Origin: Harryflintia acetispora
GTDB lineage: Bacteria > Bacillota > Clostridia > Oscillospirales > Ruminococcaceae
Assembly (NCBI RefSeq): GCF_004340125.1
Contig: NZ_SLUK01000009.1
Coordinates: 69,885-101,884 of the forward strand
Length of the DNA stretch: 32,000 nt
Direction of reading: 5' to 3'
Below are positions 4,979-30,424 of this stretch, in pieces. The position numbers and the translations under genes were made by a program. Below the pieces are notes generated by a model. It had not been told where the DNA came from. It saw only the letters and a list, made by a program, of their open reading frames with translations, and did no database searches. Positions within the stretch are counted from its first letter, which is position 1. Each line of letters begins with the position of its first letter.

Positions 4979-5053
4979 GGCCCGTTGGTCAAGAGGTTAA
5001 GACACCGCCCTTTCACGGCGGTATCGCGGGTTCGATTCCCGCACGGGTCACCA
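4979..5053 (+). tRNA. tRNA-Glu (TTC)
   Basis: Acceptor GGCCCGT/ACGGGTC, anticodon arm CCGCC-CTTTCAC-GGCGG, T arm GCGGG-TTCGATT-CCCGC, encoded CCA. It is near-identical to the Bacillus tRNA-Glu. Confidence 0.92.
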
Positions 5054-5091
5054 AAAATAAAAAGCCATCCTCGGATGGCTTTTTTATTTTT
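5054..5091. terminator. Bidirectional terminator hairpin
   Basis: Stem AAAAGCCATCC / GGATGGCTTTT flanked by A-tracts and T-tracts. Confidence 0.75.
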
Positions 5092-5112
5092 GCCCGTACG
5101 GGAATCGAACAG
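5092..5112 (-). repeat. Inverted partial copy of the tRNA-Glu 3-prime end
   Basis: The reverse complement GTTCGATTCCCGTACGGGC matches tRNA-Glu 5031-5049 (GTTCGATTCCCGCACGGGT). No complete cloverleaf can be drawn. Confidence 0.7.
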
Positions 5113-10444: not shown

Positions 10445-10885
10445 ATGGAGATCAGGAAAATGACGGCGGACGACTACGACGGAGTCTACCGGCTGTGGCT
10501 GGACACGCCGGGAATGGGACTCAACAACCTCGACGATTCGCGCGAGGGGATCGAGCGGTACCTGCGGCGCAATCCCGGGACCTGCTTCGTCGCGCAGAAG
10601 GAGGGACGGATCGTCGGCGCGATCATGAGCGGGCACGACGGGCGCCGGGGCTACATCTACCACACGGCGGTCGCCGTCCCCGAGCGCCGGCAGGGGATCG
10701 GCAGCGCGCTGCTCGCCGCCGCGTTCGATGCGCTGGAGCGCGAAGGGATCAACAAGGTCGCGCTCGTCGTGTTCGGACGCAACCGGGACGGCAACCGGTT
10801 CTGGGAGGCGAACGGGTTCACGTCCCGTGAGGATTTGGTGTACCGCAACAAGAACATCCGGGAGTTTATCCGCAACGATACCTGA
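10445..10885 (+). CDS. GNAT family N-acetyltransferase
   Basis: In frame with ORF 10436-10885. ATG 10445 follows GAGGGTGG. The acetyl-CoA motif is VAVPERRQGIGSALL. Confidence 0.85.
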   Translation: MEIRKMTADDYDGVYRLWLDTPGMGLNNLDDSREGIERYLRRNPGTCFVAQKEGRIVGAIMSGHDGRRGYIYHTAVAVPERRQGIGSALLAAAFDALEREGINKVALVVFGRNRDGNRFWEANGFTSREDLVYRNKNIREFIRNDT

Positions 10886-10934
10886 CAAAGCCGCGCACGG
10901 CAGGGGATACTGCCGTGCGCGGCTTTGTGCTTTC
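10886..10934. terminator. Bidirectional terminator (GNAT / GLUG paralog 1)
   Basis: 18-bp stem CAAAGCCGCGCACGGCAG / CTGCCGTGCGCGGCTTTG. Confidence 0.8.
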
Positions 10935-10942
10935 AGCCCGGT

Positions 10943-12214
10943 TCAGTGGGTCTGGAACACCTTGAGGGTGGGGTGGGAGGCCCCGGGCAGGAGCTCCCAG
11001 GCGCTGCCCTCCTGCCCGATGGAGAGGGCGGGCAGGTTGGAGGCTGTGGCGAAGCCGGAGGCGGCGAGCTGCACACAGCCCGCATCCAGCCCGCCGGCGT
11101 TGGACAGGCCGAAGGCGTGAGAGGCGCTGGCGCTCTGCCAGTAGCAGCCCGAAATGGAGGCGGTCCCGCCGCTGTTGGGCTGCACGCCGCCGATGAGCCC
11201 GCCGGAAGCGGGGCCGGATACGGTGGAGCCTAAGGAGTAACAGCGCAGGATGCTGCCTGAGTCGATTGCGCCGACCAGCCCTCCAGAAAAGCTGCCCGAG
11301 TTGTTTGCGGTGCAGGAGATGGTGTAGCAGTCGCTGACCTTCTGGCCACCGGAATAATAGCCGACCAGTCCGCCGGCGGTGAGGCCGCCGACGGTAATGG
11401 ACGAGTTTTGAGCATAGCAGCGATCGATGGAGCCTGTGCTGAGGCCGCAAAGGACGCCGCCGTTGTCTCTGGAAGTATAAAAGGAGGAGTCGGTCACACC
11501 GAGGTTTTGGATAGTCCCGCTGTTGCGGCCAAACAGCCCGGGATAATTCTGCGTTAGTGAGCAGGTGGCGTGGCTGACGGTGTAACCGCCGCCGTCGTAG
11601 GTGCCGGAGAAGAGGGCGGAGGAGATGCCGATCGGCGTCCAGTTGCCGTTGGCGGCGTTGCCGTCGCTGTCGTAGCCGGTAAGGTCGATGTCGTTGATCT
11701 GCAAAAAGCAAAGCCCCGCATCCAAGTGGCGGTTCAGATGCTGCAGCTGCGCCGGGGTGCTGACCCGGTAGGGGCTTTGCATGGTGCCATTTCCGGCGTA
11801 GAAGGCCCCGGCCGTCCCGGCGGCACAGCCGCAGGTGGGGGCGGTGGTGAAGGTTTTGCTGAGCGTCCCCTCTCGGTCCAGCCCCGCGCGGCCGGGGGCG
11901 ACATGGGCGGTGACCTTCAGCGTATAGTCCGCCGGACCTGCGGGATCGACGGCGCAGGGGAGATGGACCGTGACCTGCCCGGCGGCGGTGATCGTGACCC
12001 GGGCCTGCACCATGGGGGAGCCGGCGGCCGAGGCACCGGGATAAACCTCGAAGGTGTAGTCCTTTGTGCGCGGCGAGCGGGTGAAAGGAATATTGAGCCC
12101 GTAGTCGCATTCTTTGCCCGATAGGAGCTCGACGCTCAAGCCCGCCGCGGCGTGGACGCGCGCCGGGCAGGCGAGCAGGATCAGCAGGCAGACGGCAATC
12201 ATCAGCTTTTTCAA
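10943..12214 (-). CDS. Secreted GLUG-repeat protein, paralog 1
   Basis: Same frame as ORF 10943-12319. The start is taken as TTG 12214, with AGGAGG 8 nt upstream, giving MKKLMIAVCLLILLACPARVHA (a signal peptide). ATG 12202 is an alternative start. The protein has an Ig-like N-domain, a CGC motif and repeated GGLVG/GGLIG (GLUG) motifs. Confidence 0.85.
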   Translation of the reverse strand: MKKLMIAVCLLILLACPARVHAAAGLSVELLSGKECDYGLNIPFTRSPRTKDYTFEVYPGASAAGSPMVQARVTITAAGQVTVHLPCAVDPAGPADYTLKVTAHVAPGRAGLDREGTLSKTFTTAPTCGCAAGTAGAFYAGNGTMQSPYRVSTPAQLQHLNRHLDAGLCFLQINDIDLTGYDSDGNAANGNWTPIGISSALFSGTYDGGGYTVSHATCSLTQNYPGLFGRNSGTIQNLGVTDSSFYTSRDNGGVLCGLSTGSIDRCYAQNSSITVGGLTAGGLVGYYSGGQKVSDCYTISCTANNSGSFSGGLVGAIDSGSILRCYSLGSTVSGPASGGLIGGVQPNSGGTASISGCYWQSASASHAFGLSNAGGLDAGCVQLAASGFATASNLPALSIGQEGSAWELLPGASHPTLKVFQTH

Positions 12215-12242
12215 AGGGGACCCCTCCTGATTTGGGGCAGAG

Positions 12243-12267
12243 AAAAAGACCGTTAGCAAGGACTGCT
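12243..12267. repeat. E1 inverted repeat, gene-proximal arm
   Basis: AAAAAGACCGTTAGCAAGGACTGCT. Confidence 0.9.
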
Positions 12268-12313
12268 GGCGGTCTGTACCGGGCGGGAAGGGGGTGGATT
12301 TTGTCCGTTTTCC

Positions 12314-12342
12314 TTGCAAAACCCGCCAGAAAAGGGTATAAT
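12314..12342 (+). promoter_or_regulatory. Sigma-A promoter inside E1 (TTGCAA-17-TATAAT), facing away from GLUG paralog 1
   Basis: TTGCAA at 12314-12319, a 17-nt spacer, then TATAAT at 12337-12342. Confidence 0.7.
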
Positions 12343-12413
12343 TAGGGTAACATTACCAGTTGCTGGTTCGGATTATGAAGGAACTGGAAAAATTGGCGAG
12401 AAAAAAGGCCCCA

Positions 12414-12438
12414 AGCAGTCCTTGCTAGCGGTCTTTTT
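12414..12438. repeat. E1 inverted repeat, distal arm
   Basis: AGCAGTCCTTGCTAGCGGTCTTTTT is the reverse complement of the proximal arm with one mismatch. Confidence 0.9.
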
Positions 12439-12495
12439 TGTTTTTTCGCCCTCCCGGCGGGGGATGGAATTTCGCCGCCTTCCGTCAGGGAAAGG

Positions 12496-12524
12496 TTGTA
12501 TTATCAGGGCAAAAGTGGTAAAAT
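12496..12524 (+). promoter_or_regulatory. Candidate metG promoter (TTGTAT-17-TAAAAT, TG-extended)
   Basis: TTGTAT at 12496-12501 and TGgTAAAAT at 12516-12524. It lies outside cassette E1. Confidence 0.45.
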
Positions 12525-12578
12525 AACAAAACAGCTGCAAGCAGCCCCCGCATCAAACCGAATTTGGAGGAAAGTAAA

Positions 12579-14558
12579 ATGAGCAAGACATTCTACATCA
12601 CCACGCCGATCTATTATCCGTCCGGGCAGCCGCATATCGGGCACGGCTACTGCACCGTCGCGGCGGACGCTATGGCGAGGTATAAGCGAATGCAGGGGTT
12701 TGATGTCATGTTCCTTACCGGCACCGACGAGCACGGCCAGAAGATCGAGGACAAGGCCAAGGAGGCCGGGGTCACCCCCAAGGAGTATGTCGACAGGATC
12801 GTCGCCAATTTCAAAAAGCTCTGGGAGTGCTTTGAAATCTCCAACGACCGCTTCATCCGCACCACCGACGACTACCACGTCGAAGCGGTGCAAAAAATAT
12901 TTCGGCGCCTCTACGAGCAGGGGGACATCTACAAGGGCGAGTACGTCGGCAAGTATTGCACCCCCTGCGAGGCGTTCTGGACCGAGAGCCAGCTCGTCGA
13001 CGGCAAGTGCCCCGACTGCGGGCGCGAGGTCGCCGAGGCGCACGAGGAGGCCTATTTCTTCCGCCTGTCCGCCTATGCCGAGCGGCTGGTGAAATACTAC
13101 GAGGAGCACCCCGATTTCATGGAGCCGCAAGCCCGCTTTAACGAGATGGTCAATAATTTCATCAAGCCCGGGCTCGAGGATTTGTGCGTCTCGCGCACCA
13201 CCTTCAAGTGGGGCATCCCGGTGACCTTCGACGAAAAACATGTGGTCTACGTCTGGGTGGATGCGCTCTCCAACTACATCACGGCGCTCGGGTACGAAAA
13301 CGAAAAATACGATGATTTTGACAAGTACTGGCCTGCCGACGTGCACCTGGTGGGCAAGGAGATCATGCGCTTCCACGCGATCATCTGGCCGGCCATCCTG
13401 ATGGCGCTGGGCCTGCCGCTGCCCAAGAAGGTTTACGGCCACGGGTGGCTGCTGATGGACGGGGGCAAGATGAGCAAGAGCAAGGGGAACGTGGTCGACC
13501 CGTTCCTGCTCTGCGAGCGGTACTCCACCGATGCGATCCGCTACTTCCTGCTGCGGGAGATCCCCTTCGGCTCGGACGGCGTCTTCTCCAACGAGGCGCT
13601 CATCGGGCGGATCAACTCCGACCTTGCCAACGACCTTGGCAACCTGGTGTCCCGCACCGTGTCGATGGCGGGGAAATATTTCGGCGGCACCCTGCCCGCC
13701 GAGCGGGAAGCGGACGCGCTGGACGACGAGCTGACCGCCCTGGCGCAGGGGCTTTGCGCGCGGGTCGAGGCGGCCTATGACGGGATGCAGTTCCCGGTCG
13801 CGCTGACAGAAATCTTTAAGCTGGTCAGCCGCTGCAACAAGTATATCGACGAGACCATGCCCTGGAGCCTGGGCAAGGACGAAGGGAAGCGCGCGCGGCT
13901 GGCGAGCGTGCTGTATAACCTGCTGGAGTGCATTCGGATCACCGCGATCCTGATCACCCCCTGTATGCCCGCCACAGGCCCCCGGATCCTTTGCCAGATC
14001 GGGGCCGGGGAGGAAATCTCCTCCTGGGAGAGCGCCGGGAAGTTCGGGCTGCTGCCGCCGGATGTGACGACCAGCAAGGGCGAGGCGCTCTTCCCGCGGA
14101 TCGATGCCAAGAAGGAGCTCGAGGAGCTCGACGCGCTGGTGGAGGCCCAGAAGACGGCGGCCAAGGCGGCGCTGGAAGCGCCCAAGGCAGAGGCCAAGCC
14201 CGAGGAGAAGGAAGCGAAGGCCGAAGTCCCCGGGATCATCACCATCGACGACTTTATGAAGGTCGAGCTGCGGGTGGCCGAGGTGACTGCCTGCGAGCCG
14301 GTGCCCAAGGCCGACAAGCTGCTGCGTCTGGAGCTCGACGACGGGCAGGGCGGCCGGCAGGTGGTGTCGGGGATCCACCCGTGGTACGAGCCGCAGGACC
14401 TCATCGGCAAAAAGGTGGTCGTGGTGGCCAACCTAAAGCCCGCCAAGCTGCGTGGGGTGGAGTCGAACGGCATGATCCTCGCCGCTGACGCCGGGGACAG
14501 TGACGTGCGGGTGGTTTTTATCGACCACGACGTGCCCAACGGGTCGAGAATCCGCTAA
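12579..14558 (+). CDS. metG: Methionine--tRNA ligase with C-terminal tRNA-binding (Trbp111/EMAP-like) domain
   Basis: ATG 12579 follows GGAGGAAAG. It carries the HIGH motif (PHIGHGY), KMSKS (GGKMSKSKGN) and a Zn knuckle (CPDCG). The C-terminus reads KVELRVAEV...VVANLKPAKLRGVESNGMIL. Confidence 0.95.
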   Translation: MSKTFYITTPIYYPSGQPHIGHGYCTVAADAMARYKRMQGFDVMFLTGTDEHGQKIEDKAKEAGVTPKEYVDRIVANFKKLWECFEISNDRFIRTTDDYHVEAVQKIFRRLYEQGDIYKGEYVGKYCTPCEAFWTESQLVDGKCPDCGREVAEAHEEAYFFRLSAYAERLVKYYEEHPDFMEPQARFNEMVNNFIKPGLEDLCVSRTTFKWGIPVTFDEKHVVYVWVDALSNYITALGYENEKYDDFDKYWPADVHLVGKEIMRFHAIIWPAILMALGLPLPKKVYGHGWLLMDGGKMSKSKGNVVDPFLLCERYSTDAIRYFLLREIPFGSDGVFSNEALIGRINSDLANDLGNLVSRTVSMAGKYFGGTLPAEREADALDDELTALAQGLCARVEAAYDGMQFPVALTEIFKLVSRCNKYIDETMPWSLGKDEGKRARLASVLYNLLECIRITAILITPCMPATGPRILCQIGAGEEISSWESAGKFGLLPPDVTTSKGEALFPRIDAKKELEELDALVEAQKTAAKAALEAPKAEAKPEEKEAKAEVPGIITIDDFMKVELRVAEVTACEPVPKADKLLRLELDDGQGGRQVVSGIHPWYEPQDLIGKKVVVVANLKPAKLRGVESNGMILAADAGDSDVRVVFIDHDVPNGSRIR

Positions 14559-14589
14559 ATGAAAAAAGCGCAGCGCGCATAAAAAGCAT

Positions 14590-14627
14590 AAAAGCCCTCC
14601 TGCCGGCATGCCGGCAGGAGGGCTTTT
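14590..14627. terminator. Bidirectional terminator
   Basis: Perfect palindrome AAAAGCCCTCCTGCCGGCATGCCGGCAGGAGGGCTTTT. Confidence 0.85.
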
Positions 14628-14636
14628 CGCGGCGGG

Positions 14637-15803
14637 TCATCCGATGGTGACCACCTCGCCGTCCCGAAAGGCGGCATCGGAAATTTCGTTGCCGATCCCC
14701 GGGAGGTCGGGCACGGTGTATTGGCCGTCCACCGGCTGGTAGTCGAAAACGGCCAGCGCGCGCATCCTGGGGCCGATGGTGTTCACGTTGTACTCGTGGA
14801 TGACGAAGTTCGGGATGGCGCATTCCAGCTGCAGGGAGGCCGCCGTCAGCAGGGGGCTGCCGCAGACGTGGAACTGCACGCCGGCCTCGTAGATATAGGC
14901 CAGGTCGCAGATTTTCTTCGCCTCGGTGATCCCGCCGCAGGTGCCGATGTCCGGCTGCGCGATCTGCAGCGCGTCCTGACGAAAGCACTTATTGTACTGC
15001 CAGCGCGAATAGATCCGCTCGCCGCTGGCGATGGGCAACCCGGTCTCCCGGTGCACATAGCGCAGCAGCTCGGCGTGGGGCGTGGTGGGCTCTTCAAAGT
15101 AGAATATCCCGTACTCCTTGGCCATGTTGCCCATCTGCACGGCGGACTGCGCGTCGGTGTAGCAGTGGTTCTCCAGGATGATGTCCACCCCAGGGCCGAC
15201 GGCCTCGCGGGTGGCGGCGATGCGCGCGCGCAGCATCTGCATTTGGCGCGGGGCGAGCAGGCCGGTGCGCTCGGCGTCGGTGAAGCGGCCCGCATCCTCT
15301 TTGAAGTTAAAGAAATCGATCTTCACCGCGTCGAAACCCTTGTCCACCGCGGCTTTGGCTTCGCGCGCATAGTCCTCCGGCTTCCTGGCCGGCTTGCCGT
15401 CCCAGCCGTTTTGCAGCTGGCTGGCATAGGCGCGCAGGCTCTGGCGCTGCCTGCCGCCCAGCAGCTCGTGCACCGGCGCGCCGTAGGCCTTGCCCTTGAT
15501 GTCCCACAAAGCGATATCCAGGGCGCTGATCCCGCCGAAAACGACCGGTCCGCCGTTTCGTCCCCAGAAGCAGTCCCGGTAGAGCTTCTGCCAGACGGCC
15601 TCGTGCTCGAGCGGGTTCAGGCCAATCAGCCGCCGGGCGAGGTCCTGCAGCATCCCTACGGCGGCGCGCTGCGCGCCGCCGTAGGAGAGGGCCGCCTCGC
15701 CGTCGCCGTAGATCCCGCTGTCGGTATACACGCGGCAGAGCGGCGGGGTCCAGCCGAGCTCGACCGGTTTTGCGAGGAGCAGATCAATTTTTGTGATTTT
15801 CAT
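14637..15803 (-). CDS. Enolase-superfamily enzyme (mandelate racemase/muconate lactonizing family, sugar-acid dehydratase-like)
   Basis: 388 aa. MKITKIDLL..., ALDIALWDIKGKAYGAPVHELLGG and the overall pattern fit the galactonate/mannonate dehydratase-like MR/MLE family. Confidence 0.8.
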   Translation of the reverse strand: MKITKIDLLLAKPVELGWTPPLCRVYTDSGIYGDGEAALSYGGAQRAAVGMLQDLARRLIGLNPLEHEAVWQKLYRDCFWGRNGGPVVFGGISALDIALWDIKGKAYGAPVHELLGGRQRQSLRAYASQLQNGWDGKPARKPEDYAREAKAAVDKGFDAVKIDFFNFKEDAGRFTDAERTGLLAPRQMQMLRARIAATREAVGPGVDIILENHCYTDAQSAVQMGNMAKEYGIFYFEEPTTPHAELLRYVHRETGLPIASGERIYSRWQYNKCFRQDALQIAQPDIGTCGGITEAKKICDLAYIYEAGVQFHVCGSPLLTAASLQLECAIPNFVIHEYNVNTIGPRMRALAVFDYQPVDGQYTVPDLPGIGNEISDAAFRDGEVVTIG

Positions 15804-15835
15804 GGGAGCACCACCCTTTCCGTTCTTCTGTAGAA

Positions 15836-15864
15836 ATCATAATTCGCCCGCTCTCAAAACGCAA
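15836..15864 (-). promoter_or_regulatory. Candidate promoter TTGCGT-17-TATGAT for the enolase-family gene
   Basis: The reverse complement reads TTGCGT (15864-15859), a 17-nt spacer, then TATGAT (15841-15836). Confidence 0.45.
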
Positions 15865-15908
15865 TATACTATGAAATGAATGAGCGGATCATTGTTTTCA
15901 TAGCAATC

Positions 15909-15947
15909 GAAAACAAGGGGCCGCATAGCAGCGCTATGCGGCCCCTT
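15909..15947 (-). terminator. Terminator of GLUG paralog 2
   Basis: Stem AAGGGGCCGCATAG / CTATGCGGCCCCTT, followed on the minus strand by a TTTT tract. Confidence 0.75.
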
Positions 15948-15956
15948 GCGGGATGG

Positions 15957-17168
15957 TTAACCGATACTGCCGACCTGGGAGTTGCCGAAGCTGCCGCCGC
16001 TGTTGGGGGTGTAATTCCCGTAACCATAGAGATAGACGGCGTGGCTGGGGCTCGTCCAGCGGCAGTTTTGCAGGACGATGGACCCTTCCGCGTATCCGGA
16101 AATCCCTCCGGTGTAGGCGGCGGTGTTGGCTGCGGACGAGGCGCATTCGACGAAGGAGGAATCCTTGCTGTAACCGGTGATGCCCCCGGCGGTGCCGTAG
16201 GTATGCAGCTGCTTCACCGTGCCGCCGATGACCTTGCACCGCAGGGCGCTGCCGGAAAAGACATTGGATACCAGACCGCCCACTTTATACCATTCCCCGC
16301 TTGCCTGTACCGTCGGGTTGGTGACGGTGCAATCCTGGAGGACGGCGCCGCCGCTCAGCTGGGCGACGAGGGAGCCGGCATGGGCGGACGATACGGCGAC
16401 ATAGGGGGAAACTAAGGCGGCGTTTTTGACGATGCAGCCGCTTCCCGAGACACTGGCAAACATCCCCGCGGCATCACTGGAGAGGGAGGCGTCGGTGATC
16501 CGAAGGCCGCTGATGGAACAACCATTCCCGTCGAAAACGCCGCCAAAGGACGAAATGGGCGTCCATGTCCCGCCAAGCGCGATGTCCTGTACCTGCTTAA
16601 GGCTACTGGCATTGTGCTGCTCGATGTGTGCGAGCTGGGCGGGGGAGGCAATCAAAAACGGGTTGCCCGGGGAGCCGTCCCCGAAAAAGTAGCCGCCCTG
16701 CGCGCTGGAATCACACCCGCAGACATAGCCGGTGGTGTATTCCCTGGTGATCCGCCCGGCGGTATGGAAGCCGCTTTGCGCCGCGGGCACGTTGGCCGTT
16801 GCGGTGATGACAAAGGTTTCGGGCCCGGCCAGGCTAAAGTCCGCCTGCAAAAAGACGGCGGAGGTGCCGCCGCTTGTCTCGACGGAATCGAGGATGGTGC
16901 CGCTGCCCTTCCTTTGCAGGGTAAAGGTATAGGAGCCGGCATGCCCGCTCCCGGTAAAGCGCACCGTCAGCCCGCGCACCGGCAGCGCGGCGGCCACACG
17001 CGCCTGCGCTTTTGGGGAGGCCTGCACCCTCGGCAGGGTTTCCTCGTCGAGCAGCGCGGTCTCCACCTCGATGGAGGAGCCGACAGTCTCCCCGGCGGCC
17101 CCCGCCACGGACACCGTTCCCAGGACCAGGGTGAGAGAAAGAAGAATCGAACCAAGTTTTTTCCACAT
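15957..17168 (-). CDS. Secreted GLUG-repeat protein, paralog 2
   Basis: Same frame as ORF 15957-17393. ATG 17168 gives MWKKLGSILLSLTLVLGTVSVAGAAG (a signal peptide). It shares the family core ...CGC...GG(Y/F)F.GDG...ASPAQLAHI and VFDGNGCSISGL. Confidence 0.85.
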   Translation of the reverse strand: MWKKLGSILLSLTLVLGTVSVAGAAGETVGSSIEVETALLDEETLPRVQASPKAQARVAAALPVRGLTVRFTGSGHAGSYTFTLQRKGSGTILDSVETSGGTSAVFLQADFSLAGPETFVITATANVPAAQSGFHTAGRITREYTTGYVCGCDSSAQGGYFFGDGSPGNPFLIASPAQLAHIEQHNASSLKQVQDIALGGTWTPISSFGGVFDGNGCSISGLRITDASLSSDAAGMFASVSGSGCIVKNAALVSPYVAVSSAHAGSLVAQLSGGAVLQDCTVTNPTVQASGEWYKVGGLVSNVFSGSALRCKVIGGTVKQLHTYGTAGGITGYSKDSSFVECASSAANTAAYTGGISGYAEGSIVLQNCRWTSPSHAVYLYGYGNYTPNSGGSFGNSQVGSIG

Positions 17169-17173
17169 AAAAA

Positions 17174-17185
17174 TGCCCCCAATTT
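17174..17185. repeat. 12-nt direct repeat copy 1 (overlaps the RBS of GLUG paralog 2)
   Basis: TGCCCCCAATTT. On the minus strand this reads AAATTGGGGGCA, just upstream of the ATG. Confidence 0.8.
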
Positions 17186-17261
17186 GTTTGGTGGCACAAA
17201 CCATACACCCGGGCCCGCCATGACGGGCCCGGCCCACCGGCCGCTGCGCCCGGCAAGGCGC

Positions 17262-17305
17262 AAGACAACAAAGCCCATCCATCTTACCGGGTAACATGGA
17301 TGGGC
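17262..17305 (-). terminator. Intrinsic terminator inside the leader of GLUG paralog 2
   Basis: On the minus strand, stem GCCCATCCAT-(13 nt)-ATGGATGGGC is followed by TTTGTTGTCTT. It lies between the promoter (17480-17452) and the ATG at 17168. Confidence 0.6.
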
Positions 17306-17347
17306 AAAGCCTGCCGTATACTACGGCACAGCCGGCATATGCAATTT

Positions 17348-17359
17348 TGCCCCCAATTT
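17348..17359. repeat. 12-nt direct repeat copy 2
   Basis: An identical TGCCCCCAATTT lies 174 bp upstream within the leader. Confidence 0.8.
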
Positions 17360-17451
17360 TGAAGGCGGAGCCACCGATCCCCCCATCGGACACCGCCCTA
17401 TCCCCAAGCGCCGCCGGGCCTTACCCCTAAAATCCGGCAGCGTCTACCAGA

Positions 17452-17480
17452 ATTATACAGGATTCACCGCCGCATTGCAA
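17452..17480 (-). promoter_or_regulatory. Sigma-A promoter TTGCAA-17-TATAAT facing GLUG paralog 2
   Basis: The reverse complement reads TTGCAA (17480-17475), a 17-nt spacer, then TATAAT (17457-17452). It sits 17 nt after the stop codon of the kinase-like gene. Confidence 0.7.
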
Positions 17481-17496
17481 GAGGAGCCGGGCAAAA

Positions 17497-18657
17497 TCAG
17501 GGCTCGGGGGTGCGGCAGACGTCGGCGAGCAGGATGTGCACCGGCGAGAAACGGTCACAAATATAGTCGGCGCTGTTCGGCGCGCGCAGCACGCCCTCGC
17601 CCGAAAAGCCCTCCTGCTTCTGGCGCAGGGGGAGGGTGAGCACCACCTTGGTGCCGCTGCCCTCCACCGAGTCGATCATCAAGGTCCCGCCGTGGGCGGC
17701 CATCGAGAGCTTGGCCACCGTCAGCCCCAAGCCTCCGCCCGCGGCCTCGTAGCCGGTCGGATCGTGGCTGAAGAAGGGGTCGCAGATATAAGGATAGATT
17801 TCCGGCTCGATCCCGAGCCCACGGTCCGTCACGGTGATCCGAGCGCTGCCGGAAACCTCCTCGAGCGCGAGGGTGATTTCGTTGTCCGAGCGGGTATAGC
17901 GCAGCGAATTCGAGAGCACGTTGAGCAGGGCGTTTTGCAGCTTTTCCTGGTCGCACTGGCAGAGCAGCGGCCTCTCGGGCAGCGAGACGTGCAGCGGGAT
18001 TCCCAGGTCCTGCGCCAGCATTTGGACGGCATCCCCGAGCTGGCGCAGCAGCTCGCGCAGGTCGACCGTGACCGGCTCGAAGGGGTTGATGGCGCTGGTA
18101 AAGCGGGTATATTCGGTGAGATTCACGCAGTGGCGCAGAATCTTATAGCTGTTCTGGTTGATGTGCAGCAGATGCTCGCGCAGCGAGCGCTCCTTTTTGA
18201 GCTCCTCCATCCGGGACATGGCCGAGAGGGAGGCGAAGATGGAGGAGAGCGGCCCGCGCAGCTGGTTGGAGAAGGTGGACACCACCCGGTTGGCACCCAG
18301 CGGGTCGAGCGCGGTGCCCTGCGCGTTGGCCGGGCTGAGGTGGACGAGCGCAAATCGGGTTCCCCCGAATGTGCAAAACGGCACGAAGAAGAGCTCGGTG
18401 GTGCCCAGCGGCAGCCGCCCGGTGCTGACCGTCACGCTGCGGTCTGCGCAAAGCTCCTCGCCCACCCGATGGCGGTCCTCCGCCGAGAGCATGGACGAAA
18501 GCCCGTCCGGAACCTTGAAGCTGCCGTAGAGCGCGAGCGCGCGTTTGTTCGTCCAGACTATACGCAGTTCTTCGTCCACCACCGCGGTCGGTTGGCTGGA
18601 GTCGTCATACAGATCAATAACCGTCCGCGCATGCGGGCAGTCCTCCCATATTCCCAT
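17497..18657 (-). CDS. Soluble histidine-kinase-like protein (PAS-like N-terminus, DHp, HATPase_c) with a His-less H-box
   Basis: Same frame as ORF 17497-18768. ATG 18657 is preferred because the upstream codons are AT-rich promoter sequence. N-box LQNALLNVLSNSLRY, G1 DRGLGI, F PFF and G2 GGGLGLTV are all present. The H-box position reads FSNQLRGPL instead of SHELRTPL. No TM segments are seen. Confidence 0.8.
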   Translation of the reverse strand: MGIWEDCPHARTVIDLYDDSSQPTAVVDEELRIVWTNKRALALYGSFKVPDGLSSMLSAEDRHRVGEELCADRSVTVSTGRLPLGTTELFFVPFCTFGGTRFALVHLSPANAQGTALDPLGANRVVSTFSNQLRGPLSSIFASLSAMSRMEELKKERSLREHLLHINQNSYKILRHCVNLTEYTRFTSAINPFEPVTVDLRELLRQLGDAVQMLAQDLGIPLHVSLPERPLLCQCDQEKLQNALLNVLSNSLRYTRSDNEITLALEEVSGSARITVTDRGLGIEPEIYPYICDPFFSHDPTGYEAAGGGLGLTVAKLSMAAHGGTLMIDSVEGSGTKVVLTLPLRQKQEGFSGEGVLRAPNSADYICDRFSPVHILLADVCRTPEP

Positions 18658-18724
18658 ATTTTCATTTCCCCAAACAGTGTTGATTTTTGCTTTTCTCTCT
18701 ATTTGTTTATGTATTCCGGAACCC

Positions 18725-18753
18725 ATTATACATGATGTGCGCCGGGCTTGCAA
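18725..18753 (-). promoter_or_regulatory. Sigma-A promoter TTGCAA-17-TATAAT for the kinase-like gene
   Basis: The reverse complement reads TTGCAA (18753-18748), a 17-nt spacer, then TATAAT (18730-18725). Confidence 0.65.
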
Positions 18754-18836
18754 TCTTTTCGCTTGCATGCGGCCGGGACGGCGCTGCGCAGATATTACAA
18801 AATTTTAAAAAAGAGGTTAAAAGTTTGTCAATCGGC

Positions 18837-18865
18837 TTGTAGTTTTCACAAATATGGTATAGAAT
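18837..18865 (+). promoter_or_regulatory. Candidate gap promoter (TTGTAG-17-TAGAAT)
   Basis: TTGTAG at 18837-18842 and TAGAAT at 18860-18865. A GGGAGG RBS lies at 18884-18889. Confidence 0.5.
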
Positions 18866-18892
18866 AGAATCAGCTTAAAATATGGGAGGTAG

Positions 18893-19912
<1,020 letters not shown>

Positions 19913-19937
19913 GAACCATTGATACCCAAATAGAACG

Positions 19938-19969
19938 AAAAAAGCCGCGGCATTGCCGCGGCTTTTTTT
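19938..19969. terminator. Bidirectional terminator after gap
   Basis: AAAAAGCCGCGG-catt-GCCGCGGCTTTTTTT. Confidence 0.85.
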
Positions 19970-19993
19970 GTGCGCGACCGCTTAAAAAAAGAA

Positions 19994-20010
19994 GACCGAT
20001 AGTATAGGTA
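19994..20010. repeat. E3 inverted repeat, distal arm
   Basis: GACCGATAGTATAGGTA, preceded by an A-tract. Confidence 0.9.
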
Positions 20011-20084
20011 GCTATGGGCCTTCTTTGCGTTTTTCTTCCTATCTGATAGCCGGGTTTTGCCCAGCAATTGGAAATCTTCACCTA

Positions 20085-20113
20085 ATTATATCCTGTTTTT
20101 CCGGGAAATGCAA
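20085..20113 (-). promoter_or_regulatory. Sigma-A promoter inside E3 (TTGCAT-17-TATAAT), facing away from GLUG paralog 3
   Basis: The reverse complement reads TTGCAT (20113-20108), a 17-nt spacer, then TATAAT (20090-20085). Confidence 0.7.
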
Positions 20114-20163
20114 GCAAATCTACCGTTTTTTGCCTCCATCCCCCACGCCGGACGATAGGTTGA

Positions 20164-20180
20164 TACCTATACTATCGGTC
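20164..20180. repeat. E3 inverted repeat, gene-proximal arm
   Basis: TACCTATACTATCGGTC is the perfect reverse complement of the distal arm. It lies 23 nt upstream of the ATG of GLUG paralog 3. Confidence 0.9.
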
Positions 20181-20203
20181 ATTTTTGAAACGGAGGGAAT
20201 GGC

Positions 20204-21565
20204 ATGATCAAGCGGTTTGTTTGCGTAGCCCAGGCGGCCGCGCTGCTGGCCTTGACGGGGGTGCCGGCGCTCGCGCAGGGGGAGACGCTGGGCCTTTCGC
20301 TGCGCAGCGCGACCAGCACACGCGCCGGCTCGGACGGAAGCCTGCCGCAGCGCGGCTTCGAAATCACCTTCACCGGCTCCGCCCGCGCCAAGGATTATAC
20401 CTTTACGCTCAAGGAGAAGGACAGCGGCGCTGCGCTCGGCACTGTGGACGCTGCAAAGGGAGACAGCGGCGTCTTCCTGCCCGCCGACTATGACATCGCC
20501 GCGCCCAAAAGCTATTTGCTGGAGGTCACGGCCAACGTCGACCCCCAGCGCGCGGGATTCGAGCGGCCCCATACGGTCAGCCGGGAGTTTGAAGCCCCTT
20601 TCAGCTGCGGTTGTCCGTCCGGGACGGCGGGCGGCTTCCTCTACGGCGACGGGGAAACAGTCCCCTTCGCGGTGGCGAGCCCGCAGCAGCTGCAGCATGT
20701 GAACGCGCATCTGGACAAGAAGTTCGTGCAGATGGCGGACCTGGATCTCGGCGGCTACGCCAACTGGACGCCGCTGGGCGGAAACAGTCAGGACAGCTTC
20801 ACCGGAACCTATGATGGGAACGGCTACACCGTGAGCGGGCTCACCTGCACGGGGAGGGACCGGTCCGGCCTGTTCGGGGCCATCGAGGGGGCCACGGTGC
20901 AAAACCTCGGGGTGGTCGGCGCAAACCTGTCGACACCCCGGGGAATGGCCGGTGCGATTGCGGCGGGGTGCTACGACTCGGCGCTGCGGCGCTGCTTCGC
21001 ACTCGGCGGGCAGTTCGTTGCGACCGTCCAGACGGCTGAAAATCCCCAGTCTTCGGCGGGCGGCCTTGTGTCTCAGCCAATGAACTCGACAGTGGAGGAC
21101 TGCTATGCAGCCGGGATCACCTTGCAGGCCTGTTACGCCGGCGGGCTGGCCGGTTCCTTCTCCAGCCATGCCGGGCCGGATTACTCGACTGTGCGCCGGT
21201 GCTACGCCATCCCCTATTCGGTCAAGGCCTACGGGACCAACTACGCGGGCACCATCAACGGGAGCATGAACGATCTCTGCGTAATCGACGGAATCGGCTA
21301 CCAGAACATTACCGACCCGTCGCTGCCGGCACTCTCCTATATCCGGACGGTTAGCGGTATAACGAACAGTAACAGTTCTGCGATATCAGGCATTTACGAG
21401 GTGGCGGCGGGACAGCAGGATACTTTTAGCTTTCTCAGCCCCGGCGGCGCTGCCAGCGCCTGGGAGTGGGGGAGCGCCGACATTACGGGCCTTGGCACGG
21501 TGGCGGTGCCGGTGCTGAAGGTCTTTTCCGGGCACCCTTATACCCTATCCGGTGTGAACGCCTGA
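20204..21565 (+). CDS. Secreted GLUG-repeat protein, paralog 3
   Basis: 453 aa. GGAGGG RBS at 20192-20197. The signal peptide is MIKRFVCVAQAAALLALTGVPALAQG. The family core is DYTFTL, VTANVDPQRAGFER, CGC, ASPQQLQHV, TYDGNGYTVSGL and AGGLV/AGGLAG. Confidence 0.88.
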   Translation: MIKRFVCVAQAAALLALTGVPALAQGETLGLSLRSATSTRAGSDGSLPQRGFEITFTGSARAKDYTFTLKEKDSGAALGTVDAAKGDSGVFLPADYDIAAPKSYLLEVTANVDPQRAGFERPHTVSREFEAPFSCGCPSGTAGGFLYGDGETVPFAVASPQQLQHVNAHLDKKFVQMADLDLGGYANWTPLGGNSQDSFTGTYDGNGYTVSGLTCTGRDRSGLFGAIEGATVQNLGVVGANLSTPRGMAGAIAAGCYDSALRRCFALGGQFVATVQTAENPQSSAGGLVSQPMNSTVEDCYAAGITLQACYAGGLAGSFSSHAGPDYSTVRRCYAIPYSVKAYGTNYAGTINGSMNDLCVIDGIGYQNITDPSLPALSYIRTVSGITNSNSSAISGIYEVAAGQQDTFSFLSPGGAASAWEWGSADITGLGTVAVPVLKVFSGHPYTLSGVNA

Positions 21566-21602: not shown

Positions 21603-21633
21603 GGGAGGCCAGCGTCAAAGACGCTGGCCTCCC
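21603..21633. terminator. Bidirectional terminator (GLUG paralog 3 / nagA)
   Basis: GGGAGGCCAGCGTC-aaa-GACGCTGGCCTCCC. Confidence 0.8.
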
Positions 21634-25700: not shown

Positions 25701-25752
25701 GGCTAGTAGTCGCGGGGAAACCCGCAAACCGGTATCACGAAAGGAATTGACG

Positions 25753-26685
25753 ATGACGGAATACAATTCTCTGCGCGAGGTGCACCGGCGGCGCAAAAAC
25801 AGGGCCGCCGCCCCCATCGGGGCGCTGGTGCTCATCCTCGCCGCGGCAGGGCTGGTGGCGCTGATCATTTTGGGCGTCAACCTGACCTCGCAGATTCTCG
25901 ATAATTCGCGGGAGAAGCAGAAGTTTGAGAAGATCATCCAGCCGGTGCTGATGTTCGACCCGCCGCCCTTCGAGGACGTGACGACGCTGGATAAGTTCAC
26001 CGTGCTGCAGGCCGCGCTCTGGGCGACCATGCTCGGCGACAAGCGGGAGACCTATCCCTTCGACGCGCAGGGCAACCTGATCGTCCCCTCCTCGGACGTG
26101 GACGTGACCTCGACCCAGCTGTTCGGGCCCGAGCTTGAGCTCGAGCACCAGTCCTTCTCGGACTTCGGCATCTCCTATGAGTACAACGAGGCCACCAAGG
26201 CCTACCATGTGCCGGTCATGAGCGCCAGCGCGCTGTATACCCCGCGCGTGGACGAGATCACCCGCGACGGGGACACCTATTCCCTGTTGGTGGGATATAT
26301 CCCGCCGGGCACCGCCTGGAACACCGACATCGCCGGGAACAAGACCGAGCCCGACCCGCACAAGTTTATGATCTATGAGCTGAAAAGGCTGGATAAGCAT
26401 TATCAGCTGACCGCCATCAAGGACCCGCCGCCCGAGAAGCAGGTCGGCTACGGGACCGAGGCTTCGGTTCCCGACGGGGCGATCGCCAGCGTCGGGGAGG
26501 ACGAGACGCTTCCGGACGGGGAGGGCGGCGTCTACGGCGAAGGGGAGGAAGGGGCTTTGGCATCCTCCTCACAGGAGGACGGCTCGTCCAGCGCCGGGGA
26601 GAGCTCTTCCGATGAGCCGGAGGATGACGGCTTTGAGGAGGATTCCTCCACTGAGAGTTCCCCTGAGGATTCTTCGGAAGAATAA
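25753..26685 (+). CDS. Membrane-anchored hypothetical protein with a Ser/Glu/Asp-rich acidic C-terminal tail
   Basis: ATG 25753 follows AAGGA. There is a single TM segment (IGALVLILAAAGLVALIILGV). The last ~70 aa are strongly acidic (SSQEDGSSSAGESSSDEPEDDGFEEDSSTESSPEDSSEE). Confidence 0.7.
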   Translation: MTEYNSLREVHRRRKNRAAAPIGALVLILAAAGLVALIILGVNLTSQILDNSREKQKFEKIIQPVLMFDPPPFEDVTTLDKFTVLQAALWATMLGDKRETYPFDAQGNLIVPSSDVDVTSTQLFGPELELEHQSFSDFGISYEYNEATKAYHVPVMSASALYTPRVDEITRDGDTYSLLVGYIPPGTAWNTDIAGNKTEPDPHKFMIYELKRLDKHYQLTAIKDPPPEKQVGYGTEASVPDGAIASVGEDETLPDGEGGVYGEGEEGALASSSQEDGSSSAGESSSDEPEDDGFEEDSSTESSPEDSSEE

Positions 26686-29734: not shown

Positions 29735-29811
29735 GGCCCGGTAGTTCAGTTGGTTAGAACGCTAGCCTGTCACGCTAGAGGTCGTGGGTTCGAGCCCCAT
29801 CCGGGTCGCCA
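29735..29811 (+). tRNA. tRNA-Asp (GTC)
   Basis: Acceptor GGCCCGG/CCGGGTC, anticodon arm CTAGC-CTGTCAC-GCTAG, T arm GTGGG-TTCGAGC-CCCAT, encoded CCA. Confidence 0.92.
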
Positions 29812-29907
29812 ATTTGCCTTTTCGCACGGTTCCTGTCCCGGATGGGGCGAGAACGGCCGACCGCTTGCAAGAGCGGGGGAATCGTGCCAGTGGCACGATT
29901 TTAGGCC

Positions 29908-30279: not shown

Positions 30280-30354
30280 GGCGCCGTAGCCAAGAGGTAA
30301 GGCAGAGGTCTGCAAAACCTTCATTCACCAGTTCAAATCTGGTCGGCGCCTCCA
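30280..30354 (+). tRNA. tRNA-Cys (GCA)
   Basis: Acceptor GGCGCCG/CGGCGCC, anticodon arm GAGGT-CTGCAAA-ACCTT, T arm ACCAG-TTCAAAT-CTGGT, encoded CCA. Confidence 0.9.
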
Positions 30355-30358
30355 AAAA

Positions 30359-30397
30359 GCGAGCGCCCTTCCGACAGGAAGGGCGCTCGTGTTTTTG
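30359..30397. terminator. Terminator after tRNA-Cys
   Basis: GCGAGCGCCCTTCC-gaca-GGAAGGGCGCTCG followed by TGTTTTTGTT. Confidence 0.8.
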
Positions 30398-30400
30398 TTC

Positions 30401-30424
30401 GGCGCCCCAGATTTGAACTGTGGT
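30401..30424 (-). repeat. Inverted partial copy of the tRNA-Cys 3-prime end
   Basis: GGCGCCCCAGATTTGAACTGTGGT is approximately the reverse complement of tRNA-Cys 30327-30350 (CACCAGTTCAAATCTGGTCGGCGCC). Confidence 0.7.

What the first reader, a model, noticed from the sequence alone, without database searches (positions are those of the whole stretch)
10943..21565. Three-member family of small secreted GLUG-repeat proteins interspersed among core housekeeping genes
ORFs at 10943-12214 (minus), 15957-17168 (minus) and 20204-21565 (plus) are paralogs. Each has a Sec signal peptide and a ~110-aa beta-rich N-domain (DYTF(T/E)(L/V); VTA(H/N)V.P..(A/S)G(L/F)). An invariant CGC then follows, and after it G(G/A)(F/Y)(F/L/Y).G(D/N)G...P(F/Y)..(A/S)(S/T)P(A/Q)QL(Q/A)H. 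Next comes (T/V)(Y/F)DG(G/N)G(Y/C)(T/S)(V/I)S and then several GGLVG/GGLIG/GGLAG (GLUG) repeats. Two of them end with W(E)(L/W)...P(T/V)LKVF.

None has a recognisable wall anchor (no LPXTG, SLH or choline-binding repeats). Each is a monocistronic unit insulated by strong bidirectional terminators and wedged between metG, gap, nagA and similar genes, rather than sitting in an island.

Two paralogs carry putative invertons and the third has a terminator-gated leader. Together this looks like a multi-locus, stochastically expressed secreted or surface protein repertoire of unknown function. The recombinase would be trans-encoded, because none is in the window.
Basis: partly seen in the sequence, partly recalled or inferred. 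Interest (0 to 1): 0.65.

Follow-up and report, generated by a model that had tools for sequence, protein, structure and literature searches.

The report
Invertible-promoter-switched secreted beta-helix protein family
A human-gut Clostridium (Provencibacterium massiliense-like) encodes three related secreted proteins, and two of them lie behind a small DNA cassette that can flip its only promoter toward or away from the gene; on/off switches of this kind are known, but this conserved cassette and this protein family do not appear in the literature I could search.

Summary
The window has exactly three paralogs: gene1 10943-12214(-), gene2 15957-17168(-) and gene3 20204-21565(+). Each has a signal peptide, an Ig-like N-domain, a CGC linker and a GLUG-type right-handed beta-helix. 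The helix is homologous to the N-terminal domain of streptococcal IgA1 metalloproteases and to BACOVA_03286, but there is no protease domain and no wall anchor.

Gene1 and gene3 each lie directly behind a homologous ~186-bp cassette. It is bounded by two 27-bp dyad-symmetric sites (GACC-N19-GGTC) in inverted orientation. Inside is one consensus promoter (TTGCAA/TTGCAT-N17-TATAAT) that points away from the gene (OFF).

The same cassette, always OFF, precedes relatives at 10 further loci in Harryflintia and in metagenomes. The distal site is usually also a two-way terminator. The site centre is identical within a locus and differs between loci.

Two Logan assemblies show de Bruijn-graph signs of the flipped state at gene3: an exact ON-junction, and a contig ending at the predicted branch point.

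Gene2 has a fixed promoter and a structured 284-nt leader of unknown function. No recombinase lies in the window or beside nine related loci.

Verdict: a real, new member of a known kind (multi-locus invertible promoters). What the proteins bind or do is unknown.

The parts
10943..12214 (-). gene1: 423-aa secreted protein (TTG start). Signal peptide, Ig-like N-domain, CGC linker, GLUG-type beta-helix.
   Evidence: P0001, 100% identity; AF2 model, pLDDT 87.8
12248..12433 (-). Inverton 1 (186 bp). Proximal 27-bp site 12248-12274 and distal 27-bp site 12407-12433. Both sites are dyad-symmetric (GACC..GGTC) and share the core TAGCAAGGACTGCT.
   Evidence: (repeat I2)
12314..12342 (+). Promoter inside inverton 1, TTGCAA-N17-TATAAT. 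It currently points away from gene1 (OFF), toward the distal site, whose hairpin and T-run act as a terminator before metG.
15957..17168 (-). gene2: 403-aa paralog with no inverton. It is 99.8% identical to Provencibacterium massiliense WP_143533540.1.
17169..17480 (-). gene2 control region. Fixed promoter TTGCAA-N17-TATAAT (17480-17452), then a structured ~284-nt leader with a terminator-like hairpin at 17273-17305 followed by a U-rich tract.
   Evidence: (repeat I25)
19994..20180 (+). Inverton 3 (187 bp). Distal site 19994-20020 and proximal site 20154-20180, with shared core GACCGATAGTATAGGTA.
   Evidence: (repeat I6)
20085..20113 (-). Promoter inside inverton 3, TTGCAT-N17-TATAAT, pointing away from gene3 (OFF).
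   Evidence: read; aligned with the inverton 1 promoter
20204..21565 (+). gene3: 453-aa paralog.
   Evidence: (P0113)
10885..10928 (.). Perfect 19-bp-stem hairpin between the converging GNAT gene and gene1 (two-way terminator).
   Evidence: repeat I10
15913..15949 (-). Intrinsic terminator after gene2.
   Evidence: (repeat I19)
19935..19971 (.). Two-way terminator after gap, 22 nt before the distal site of inverton 3.
   Evidence: (repeat I15)
21603..21633 (+). Terminator-like hairpin after gene3.

Best explanation
Gene1 and gene3, and most of their relatives in Provencibacterium/Harryflintia-type Oscillospiraceae, are phase-variable genes. Each is controlled by its own copy of a conserved ~186-bp invertible promoter cassette.

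Shown by sequence:
- The gene has a ribosome-binding site but no promoter of its own.
- The only consensus sigma-A-type promoter lies inside the cassette.
- The cassette is bounded by two 27-bp dyad-symmetric sites in inverted orientation.
- The outer GACC/GGTC ends of the sites are conserved at all loci. The central ~10-17 nt are identical between the two sites of one locus and differ between loci.
- The distal site is a hairpin with T-runs on both sides.

Inferred mechanism:
- A site-specific recombinase encoded elsewhere binds the GACC half-sites and exchanges strands in the shared centre, which flips the cassette.
- I lean toward a tyrosine recombinase because the site has an odd length and because of Clostridial precedents. 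This is not shown.
- In the assembled (OFF) orientation the promoter fires outward. Its transcript ends about 65 nt later at the distal site, so metG and gap are insulated. The same hairpin stops read-through from the upstream neighbour.
- After inversion the promoter reads through about 65 nt of cassette and the proximal site into the ribosome-binding site and gene (ON).
- Locus-specific centres would keep the switches independent and prevent rearrangement between loci. This gives combinatorial expression of a secreted-protein repertoire.
- The population is strongly OFF-biased.

The products are Sec-exported proteins with no anchor: an Ig-like domain followed by a GLUG beta-helix. They resemble a stand-alone N-terminal domain of M26 IgA1 proteases and have no catalytic domain. 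They most likely bind a ligand (host, glycan or cell surface); which ligand is unknown.

Gene2 is the non-switching member. It has a fixed promoter and a long structured leader.
For: Cassette anatomy. Significance: 2 matches against 0.00 expected by chance.

Conservation. The same cassette lies immediately upstream of the start codon at:
- H. acetispora P0008, P0013 and P0009;
- metagenome relatives P0006, P0004 and P0007;
- eight further metagenome contigs, which add four distinct loci. At L103/L108 and L106 the downstream ORF hits the family HMM. The L105 contig is too short to judge. L107 carries a different payload.

Orientation. The promoter faces away from the gene at all 12 distinct loci, and in 11 assemblies of inverton 1.

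Site centres are identical within each locus and differ between loci.

Evidence for inversion:
- The first 59 nt of contig L008 equal the reverse complement of the predicted ON junction, while only 28 nt match the reference.
- Contig L006 ends at window position 19981. That is the start of the first 31-mer containing the first orientation-specific base, 20011.

No recombinase in the window or in the flanks of nine related loci.

Protein. AF2 model with pLDDT 87.8. Profile match to 3n6z at E = 3e-19 and to IgA1 proteases at about 1e-10. Foldseek match to 3n6z at 2e-9. No HExxH or LPXTG. In the pneumococcal enzyme this domain is a small subdomain plus a beta-helix and it contacts the IgA1 Fab (PMC7695701). 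About 40 clusters at 50% identity share the N-domain plus beta-helix architecture.
Against: - No assembly shows a complete cassette in the ON orientation. Evidence for flipping rests on k-mer-level graph features in two samples, and template switching at inverted repeats during library preparation could mimic these.
- No recombinase was identified, so its type is a guess.
- In inverton 1 the proximal site also forms a hairpin followed by TTTTT (dG -10.8), which could dampen ON expression.
- Promoter activity, secretion and any binding function are untested.
- Pfam GLUG is below threshold.
- GTDB genome scans returned no related locus. I could not survey the whole genome for further copies.
Confidence: 0.75

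Rival explanations
1. The repeats are not recombination sites. They are related intrinsic-terminator or operator palindromes around a fixed divergent promoter that makes a short RNA. The genes are expressed by other means, or are silent.
For: Each site is itself a hairpin. The distal site has T-runs on both sides, so it does resemble a terminator. Every complete assembly shows a single orientation.
Against: - The proximal site lies 13-40 nt (mostly 15-30) before the start codon and has no consistent T-run.
- The asymmetric site centres are inverted relative to each other and are kept identical within a locus while diverging between loci. Recombination predicts this; termination does not.
- The exact ON junction in L008 and the branch-point break in L006 support flipping.
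- No alternative gene-facing promoter is conserved in the cassette.
Confidence: 0.1
2. The switch is real, but the products are beta-helix enzymes (polysaccharide lyase or glycosidase type) that are secreted to degrade a glycan. They are not binding or adhesion proteins.
For: Right-handed beta-helices are common in pectate lyases and phage depolymerases. Weak Foldseek hits to Pel3, PelA and fucoidan lyase and to phage 'pectate lyase superfamily' proteins.
Against: Those matches are poor (probability 0.04-0.47, TM-score 0.14-0.23). The significant matches are to the non-catalytic GLUG helix of 3n6z and the IgA1-protease N-terminal domain. No enzyme family matched in Pfam or NCBIfam.
Confidence: 0.15
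3. The cassettes and genes are remnants of a mobile element or prophage, such as tail-fibre-like beta-helix proteins with shufflon-type variation.
For: GLUG beta-helices occur in phage proteins. The locus next to gap varies between strains.
Against: - The proteins have signal peptides, and each gene sits alone between housekeeping genes.
- No phage or transposase genes are nearby.
- GC content is like the rest of the genome.
- The cassette pattern is absent from 2.9 million viral contigs.
- The inversion moves a promoter, not coding segments.
Confidence: 0.03

Closest known systems
Bacteroides fragilis Mpi-dependent invertible promoters (multi-locus polysaccharide and surface switches)
   Same: Many dispersed ~200-bp promoter cassettes flanked by related inverted repeats. 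Each controls one surface or secreted locus, and all are flipped by a recombinase encoded elsewhere, which gives combinatorial ON/OFF states. (My own knowledge; Coyne 2003 and Krinos 2001 appear in the reference list read.)
   Different: Different phylum and different promoter type (here sigma-A TTGCAA-N17-TATAAT). Different repeat motif (GACC-N19-GGTC, dyad-symmetric, locus-specific centre). The targets are single genes of one protein family rather than polysaccharide operons. The recombinase is unidentified (Mpi is a serine invertase). The distal site doubles as a two-way terminator.
E. coli fimS (FimB/FimE)
   Same: The promoter lies inside a short invertible element next to the regulated gene, and the population is OFF-biased (my own knowledge).
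   Different: fimS is a single locus with 9-bp repeats and adjacent tyrosine recombinase genes. Here there are several loci, 27-bp dyad sites and no adjacent recombinase.
Clostridioides difficile RecV-dependent switches (cwpV, flgB, cmrRST) and Clostridia 'inverton group 139' (PMC11892184)
   Same: Clostridia; several invertons per genome affecting surface proteins; tyrosine recombinases implicated. Group 139 includes an Oscillospiraceae member, Intestinimonas.
   Different: The cwpV switch works by forming a terminator downstream of a fixed promoter (my own knowledge); here the promoter itself is inverted. Group 139 invertons nearly always have a recombinase within 5 kb; here none was seen in 10 loci. 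I could not compare repeat motifs because the supplementary tables are not held.
N-terminal domain of M26 IgA1 metalloproteases (S. pneumoniae 6xja/7jgj, Gemella 7uvk) and BACOVA_03286 (3n6z)
   Same: Homologous GLUG-type right-handed beta-helix (profile E = 3e-19 to 5e-10; Foldseek 2e-9). Same layout of a small N-terminal subdomain plus a beta-helix (PMC7695701).
   Different: No middle or C-terminal catalytic domains, no HExxH, no G5 and no LPXTG. The protein is only 400-450 aa. The N-domain is a clade-specific Ig-like fold, distantly related to FctA/Spy0128 repeats.

Membership tests
Invertible promoter (inverton) | Pair of inverted repeats flanking a short DNA segment | tested here: met
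   Repeats of 33 nt (88%) and 23 nt (91%), 130 and 153 nt apart. Cassette pattern matches twice against 0.00 expected. The asymmetric centres are in inverted orientation.
Invertible promoter (inverton) | Promoter inside the segment that faces the regulated gene in only one orientation | tested here: met
   Sequence-level only. TTGCAA/TTGCAT/TTGAAA-N17-TATAAT is the most conserved interior block at all 12 loci and faces away from the gene. Activity was not measured.
Invertible promoter (inverton) | Both orientations present in natural or cultured populations | tested here: inconclusive
   L008 starts with the exact ON junction over 59 nt. L006 ends at the predicted OFF/ON branch k-mer.
Invertible promoter (inverton) | A cognate site-specific recombinase | not testable with these tools
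   None in the 32-kb window or in the flanks of nine related loci.
Pfam GLUG (PF07581) | Score at or above the gathering cut-off (20.5 bits) | tested here: not met
   15.6 bits (gene1), 14.4 bits (gene2), no hit (gene3). Homolog P0011 carries a precomputed PF07581 hit, and the family profile matches GLUG-helix structures, so homology to GLUG helices is supported despite the sub-threshold repeat scores.
M26 IgA1 metalloprotease (ZmpA/IgA1P) | Beta-helix N-terminal domain homologous to the IgA1P N-terminal domain | tested here: met
   hmmsearch of the family profile against PDB: 6xja, 6xjb, 7jgj, 7uvk and 7uvl at E = 5e-10 to 6e-11.
M26 IgA1 metalloprotease (ZmpA/IgA1P) | Zinc-metalloprotease catalytic region with HExxH | tested here: not met
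   No HExxH in any of the three proteins. No Peptidase_M26 hit. The proteins end right after the helix C-cap.
Gram-positive wall-anchored surface protein | LPXTG sorting signal, SLH, choline-binding or similar anchor | tested here: not met
   No such Pfam domain at E <= 1 and no LPXTG-like motif.
cwpV-type terminator switch | Fixed promoter upstream; the inversion creates or removes a terminator in the leader | tested here: not met
   The promoter is inside the invertible segment. No conserved promoter lies upstream of the distal site, which is itself a terminator.
Known riboswitch or leader RNA (gene2 leader) | Match to an Rfam covariance model | tested here: not met
   The only hit is Collinsella-1 at 12.6 bits against a threshold of 35, on the opposite strand, E = 0.61. 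The leader is nevertheless unusually structured (z = -3.57).

The most novel reading that the evidence does not exclude
The cassette plus gene is a duplicating module in which the recombination sites have been adapted to serve also as two-way transcription terminators. Locus-specific crossover cores would let one master recombinase run many independent switches without scrambling the chromosome. The switched products would be stand-alone copies of the immunoglobulin-contacting N-terminal domain of IgA1 proteases. On this reading the system is a phase-variable repertoire of secreted IgA- or mucosa-binding decoys or adhesins in a gut commensal. The same N-domain and cassette also carry other payloads (L107: Big_2 plus an unknown domain).
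Probability: 0.12. Interest if true: 0.75.

Novelty: new member of a known kind. Interest (0 to 1): 0.55.

Why it matters
Invertible promoters are a main source of surface variation in gut Bacteroidota but are poorly characterised in Oscillospiraceae. These bacteria are abundant, hard to culture and almost unstudied genetically.

This finding supplies three things:
- a defined, conserved cassette with a searchable signature;
- a coherent target protein family, about 40 clusters at 50% identity;
- testable design features: a site that doubles as a terminator, locus-specific cores and a strong OFF bias.

It gives an entry point for finding the master recombinase. It also allows a test of whether these IgA1-protease-N-domain-like proteins interact with host immunoglobulin, mucus or phage. 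The practical value is better inverton annotation in Clostridial metagenome-assembled genomes, and an explanation for assembly breaks at these loci.

Tried and rejected
- GTDB genome scans. Five scans (family alignment, P0010, two promoter or leader patterns, the strict cassette pattern) found no related locus. The relevant genomes seem to be absent or masked, so I could not survey the whole genome or search for the recombinase.
- Promoter-only pattern. It returned 73 loci, mostly in Clostridia. None had flanking repeats (best repeat score 12 or lower), so they are ordinary promoters and were discarded.
- Exact look-ups of the gap protein and of P0010 were not on record. I therefore could not examine the distal side of inverton 3 in more samples, or compare the gene2-type leader across species.
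- Rfam found nothing relevant at the gathering threshold or at E <= 10 on the gene2 leader.
- The word-indexed search with the N-domain profile returned only fragments. The exhaustive search was needed.
- The recurrent Logan contig break at window position 14929 looked like a possible intragenic switch. The continuing contigs are colinear with the window there. I did not establish the cause; most likely a k-mer shared with other genomes.
- Gene2's upstream region does not align with the cassettes and has no GACC..GGTC sites, so it is not a locked-ON inverton.
- The viral collection has no cassette match.
- Literature searches for GLUG plus inverton, and for Provencibacterium or Harryflintia, found no prior description.

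Full report
**1. The proteins**

The window (about 62% GC) contains ORFs at 10943-12214(-), 15957-17168(-) and 20204-21565(+). They align over their full length at 28-43% identity.

A family HMM hits only these three ORFs in the window. Each starts with a typical Sec signal: a K/R-rich N-terminus, a hydrophobic core and an AxA-like cleavage site, read directly from the sequences. None has HExxH or an LPXTG-like motif, and none has any anchor domain in Pfam at E <= 1. Pfam GLUG is only sub-threshold. NCBIfam has no model for them.

**2. Fold and relatives**

An AlphaFold2 model of gene1, built on a 14-member family alignment, is confident (pLDDT 87.8, pTM 0.85). It shows a signal helix, a seven-strand Ig-like domain (residues 26-123), a linker holding the CGC motif, and a right-handed beta-helix that runs to the C-terminus.

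The family profile matches solved structures only through the helix:
- BACOVA_03286, deposited as 'putative IgA1 protease' (3n6z, E = 3e-19);
- the N-terminal domains of the S. pneumoniae and Gemella IgA1 metalloproteases (E about 1e-10).

Foldseek agrees (3n6z, 2e-9). The N-domain matches only generic FN3 and Ig folds.

[quoted passage not shown] The window proteins therefore look like stand-alone versions of that module without the protease.

An exhaustive profile search with the N-domain found 62 representative clusters. About 40 of them are 370-475-aa proteins with the same layout of signal peptide, N-domain and helix. The weak tail consists of FctA/Spy0128-type and cadherin-type repeat adhesins. 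The family is small and specific to this clade.

**3. Organism**

Gene2 is 402/403 identical to Provencibacterium massiliense WP_143533540.1. Its 90% cluster also holds proteins labelled Harryflintia acetispora. Both genera are Oscillospiraceae. Flanking genes in other assemblies of the species are 98.6-100% identical to the window.

**4. The switches**

Upstream of gene1 lie inverted repeats at 12243-12275/12406-12438. Upstream of gene3 lie repeats at 19988-20010/20164-20186.

Between each pair sits one near-consensus promoter:
- TTGCAA-N17-TATAAT at 12314-12342 on the + strand;
- TTGCAT-N17-TATAAT at 20113-20085 on the - strand.

Both point away from the gene they adjoin. The two cassettes are homologous in their interiors.

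Aligning them with six cassettes from relatives and analysing 12 distinct loci gives a common anatomy:
- a distal 27-bp site, GACC-N19-GG(T/C)C, with dyad symmetry;
- about 64 nt of variable sequence;
- the -10 and -35 boxes on the opposite strand;
- about 38 nt of further interior sequence;
- a proximal 27-bp site;
- 13-40 nt (mostly 15-30) containing the ribosome-binding site;
- the start codon.

A strict pattern for this anatomy matches the window exactly twice. Shuffles gave 0.00 matches. The pattern matches every related locus and none of 73 unrelated Clostridial promoters.

**5. Conservation**

The cassette precedes H. acetispora paralogs P0008, P0013 and P0009 and metagenome relatives P0006, P0004 and P0007. 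It also occurs in eight more metagenome contigs. These add four distinct loci:
- At two of them (L103/L108 and L106) the downstream ORF hits the family HMM.
- L105 is too short to judge.
- In L107 the cassette precedes a different secreted protein. Its first ~128 residues align weakly with the family N-domain (hhalign E = 1e-4), and a Big_2 domain and an unassigned C-terminal domain follow.

At all 12 distinct loci, and in 11 assemblies of inverton 1, the promoter faces away from the gene. If the two orientations were equally likely, 12 of 12 would have a probability of about 2e-4 (my calculation). The OFF state therefore dominates in natural populations.

The gene on the distal side varies and lies in either orientation. 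The family gene is the only consistent partner of the cassette.

**6. Features of the sites**

- The outer GACC/GGTC ends are conserved at all loci. They are the likely binding determinant for a shared recombinase.
- The central 10-17 nt are identical between the distal site and the reverse complement of the proximal site within a locus. They differ between loci, for example AGCAAGGACTGCT at inverton 1 and GACCGATAGTATAGGTA at inverton 3. The asymmetric centre is inverted between the two sites of a pair, which predicts inversion rather than deletion. The locus-specific centres should also prevent recombination between loci. This last point is inference.
- The distal site folds into a hairpin (dG -5 to -17 kcal/mol). 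It has a T-run on the outward strand in about 10 of 12 loci and on the gene strand in about 8-9 of 12. It should therefore terminate both the outward OFF transcript and read-through from the upstream neighbour.
- The proximal site has no consistent T-run.

**7. Evidence that the cassette flips**

Independent assemblies of the gene3 locus were retrieved.

- Logan contig L008 (run ERR12745726) begins with GTTTCAAAAATGACCGATAGTATAGGTAGCTATGGG. Its first 59 nt are the exact reverse complement of the predicted ON-state proximal junction, while only 28 nt match the reference. The perfect repeat is 17 nt, shorter than the 31-nt k-mer I assume for Logan assemblies (k = 31 is from my own knowledge, not from a tool output). 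On that assumption, reads spanning an ON junction must exist.
- Logan contig L006 (run SRR27027535) ends at window position 19981. That is the start of the first 31-mer to include the first orientation-specific base, 20011. A unitig is expected to break exactly there if both OFF and ON continuations are present.
- An ENA contig of the P0013 locus also starts inside the distal site.

This supports flipping but is not conclusive.

**8. Recombinase**

Pfam scans of all substantial ORFs in the window found no integrase or resolvase. None is called in the flanks of nine related loci. A trans-acting enzyme is therefore inferred.

The odd 27-bp site length and Clostridial precedents make a tyrosine recombinase somewhat more likely than a serine invertase. 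The precedents are RecV, from my own knowledge, and the tyrosine recombinases linked to Clostridial inverton group 139 (PMC11892184). This is a guess.

**9. Gene2**

Gene2 has no GACC..GGTC sites and no cassette homology. A fixed TTGCAA-N17-TATAAT promoter (17480-17452) points at the gene. The ~284-nt leader folds unusually well (z = -3.57). It contains a 10-bp-stem hairpin (17273-17305) followed by CUUUGUUGUCUU.

No Rfam family fits. Ten other assemblies are colinear with the window and differ at 2 nt, which gives no power for covariation analysis.

Gene2-type proteins (P0002, P0010) share a distinct C-terminus (S(F/Y)GNSQV.SI) and lack the W..LKVF cap.

**10. Context and strain variation**

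Each gene is monocistronic and bounded by hairpin terminators. Each lies among housekeeping genes.

In two assemblies of the same species an AT-rich segment follows the gap terminator where the window has inverton 3 and gene3. That segment carries AMP-binding, acyl-carrier and MBOAT genes. The gene3 position therefore varies between strains.

**11. Comparison and novelty**

In function this is a multi-locus invertible-promoter system. It works like the Mpi-controlled promoters of B. fragilis and like fimS, and it occurs in Clostridia, where RecV-type switches are known.

It differs from those in four ways:
- the repeat motif;
- the coupling of one cassette family to one protein family;
- the site that doubles as a terminator;
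- the absence of a nearby recombinase.

Searches of the held literature found no description of it. I file it as a new member of a known kind. The protein family is uncharacterised and is annotated only as 'hypothetical protein'.

Noticed in passing
window 5030-5110, 29774-29868, 30329-30420: The last tRNA of each cluster (tRNA-Glu, tRNA-Asp, tRNA-Cys) is followed by a terminator hairpin. After that comes a reverse-complement copy of the tRNA's own T-arm and 3' acceptor strand (repeats of 31-44 nt, 77-78% complementary). There are three independent cases in 32 kb. Integration scars would be direct repeats, not inverted ones. Unexplained.
   Followed up: partly
L107 110-295 and 320-1630: The same cassette, OFF, precedes a different secreted protein. 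It has a weakly similar N-domain, a Big_2 domain and an unassigned C-terminal domain with no Pfam match. The cassette and N-domain may therefore carry alternative payloads.
   Followed up: partly
L110 3123-3757 and L109/L110 1-3126 (the equivalent of window positions above 19972): In other assemblies of the same species an AT-rich segment follows the gap terminator where the window has inverton 3 and gene3. The segment carries dlt-like genes (AMP-binding, PP-binding, acetyltransferase, MBOAT). This junction is a point of strain variation.
   Followed up: partly
window 14929: Ten Logan contigs from different runs all end at the same base inside the MR_MLE epimerase gene. Longer contigs are colinear with the window there. 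The cause was not established; most likely a k-mer shared with other genomes rather than a switch. It is a reminder that contig ends alone are weak evidence.
   Followed up: yes
window 17169-17445 (- strand): The 5' leader of gene2 is unusually structured (MFE -142.8 kcal/mol, z = -3.57) and has no Rfam match. It may be an undescribed cis-regulatory RNA.
   Followed up: partly
window 17497-18657 (- strand): A 386-aa cytoplasmic PAS histidine kinase with no adjacent response regulator lies directly upstream of gene2. Its stop codon is 17 nt before the -35 box of gene2's promoter. The P0004 locus also has a two-component system directly upstream. This may be coincidence.
   Followed up: no
window 27788-29461 (+) and 25747-26685 (+): Two membrane or secreted proteins (557 and 312 aa) have no Pfam match. 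The 312-aa protein has a long acidic, Ser/Glu/Asp-rich tail.
   Followed up: no
protein cluster of P0002: Proteins at least 90% identical to gene2 are labelled Provencibacterium massiliense in some NCBI records and Harryflintia acetispora in others. This suggests inconsistent species naming among these assemblies. The 'H. acetispora' assembly GCA_015550205.1 carries a different set of switched paralogs at different loci.
   Followed up: no
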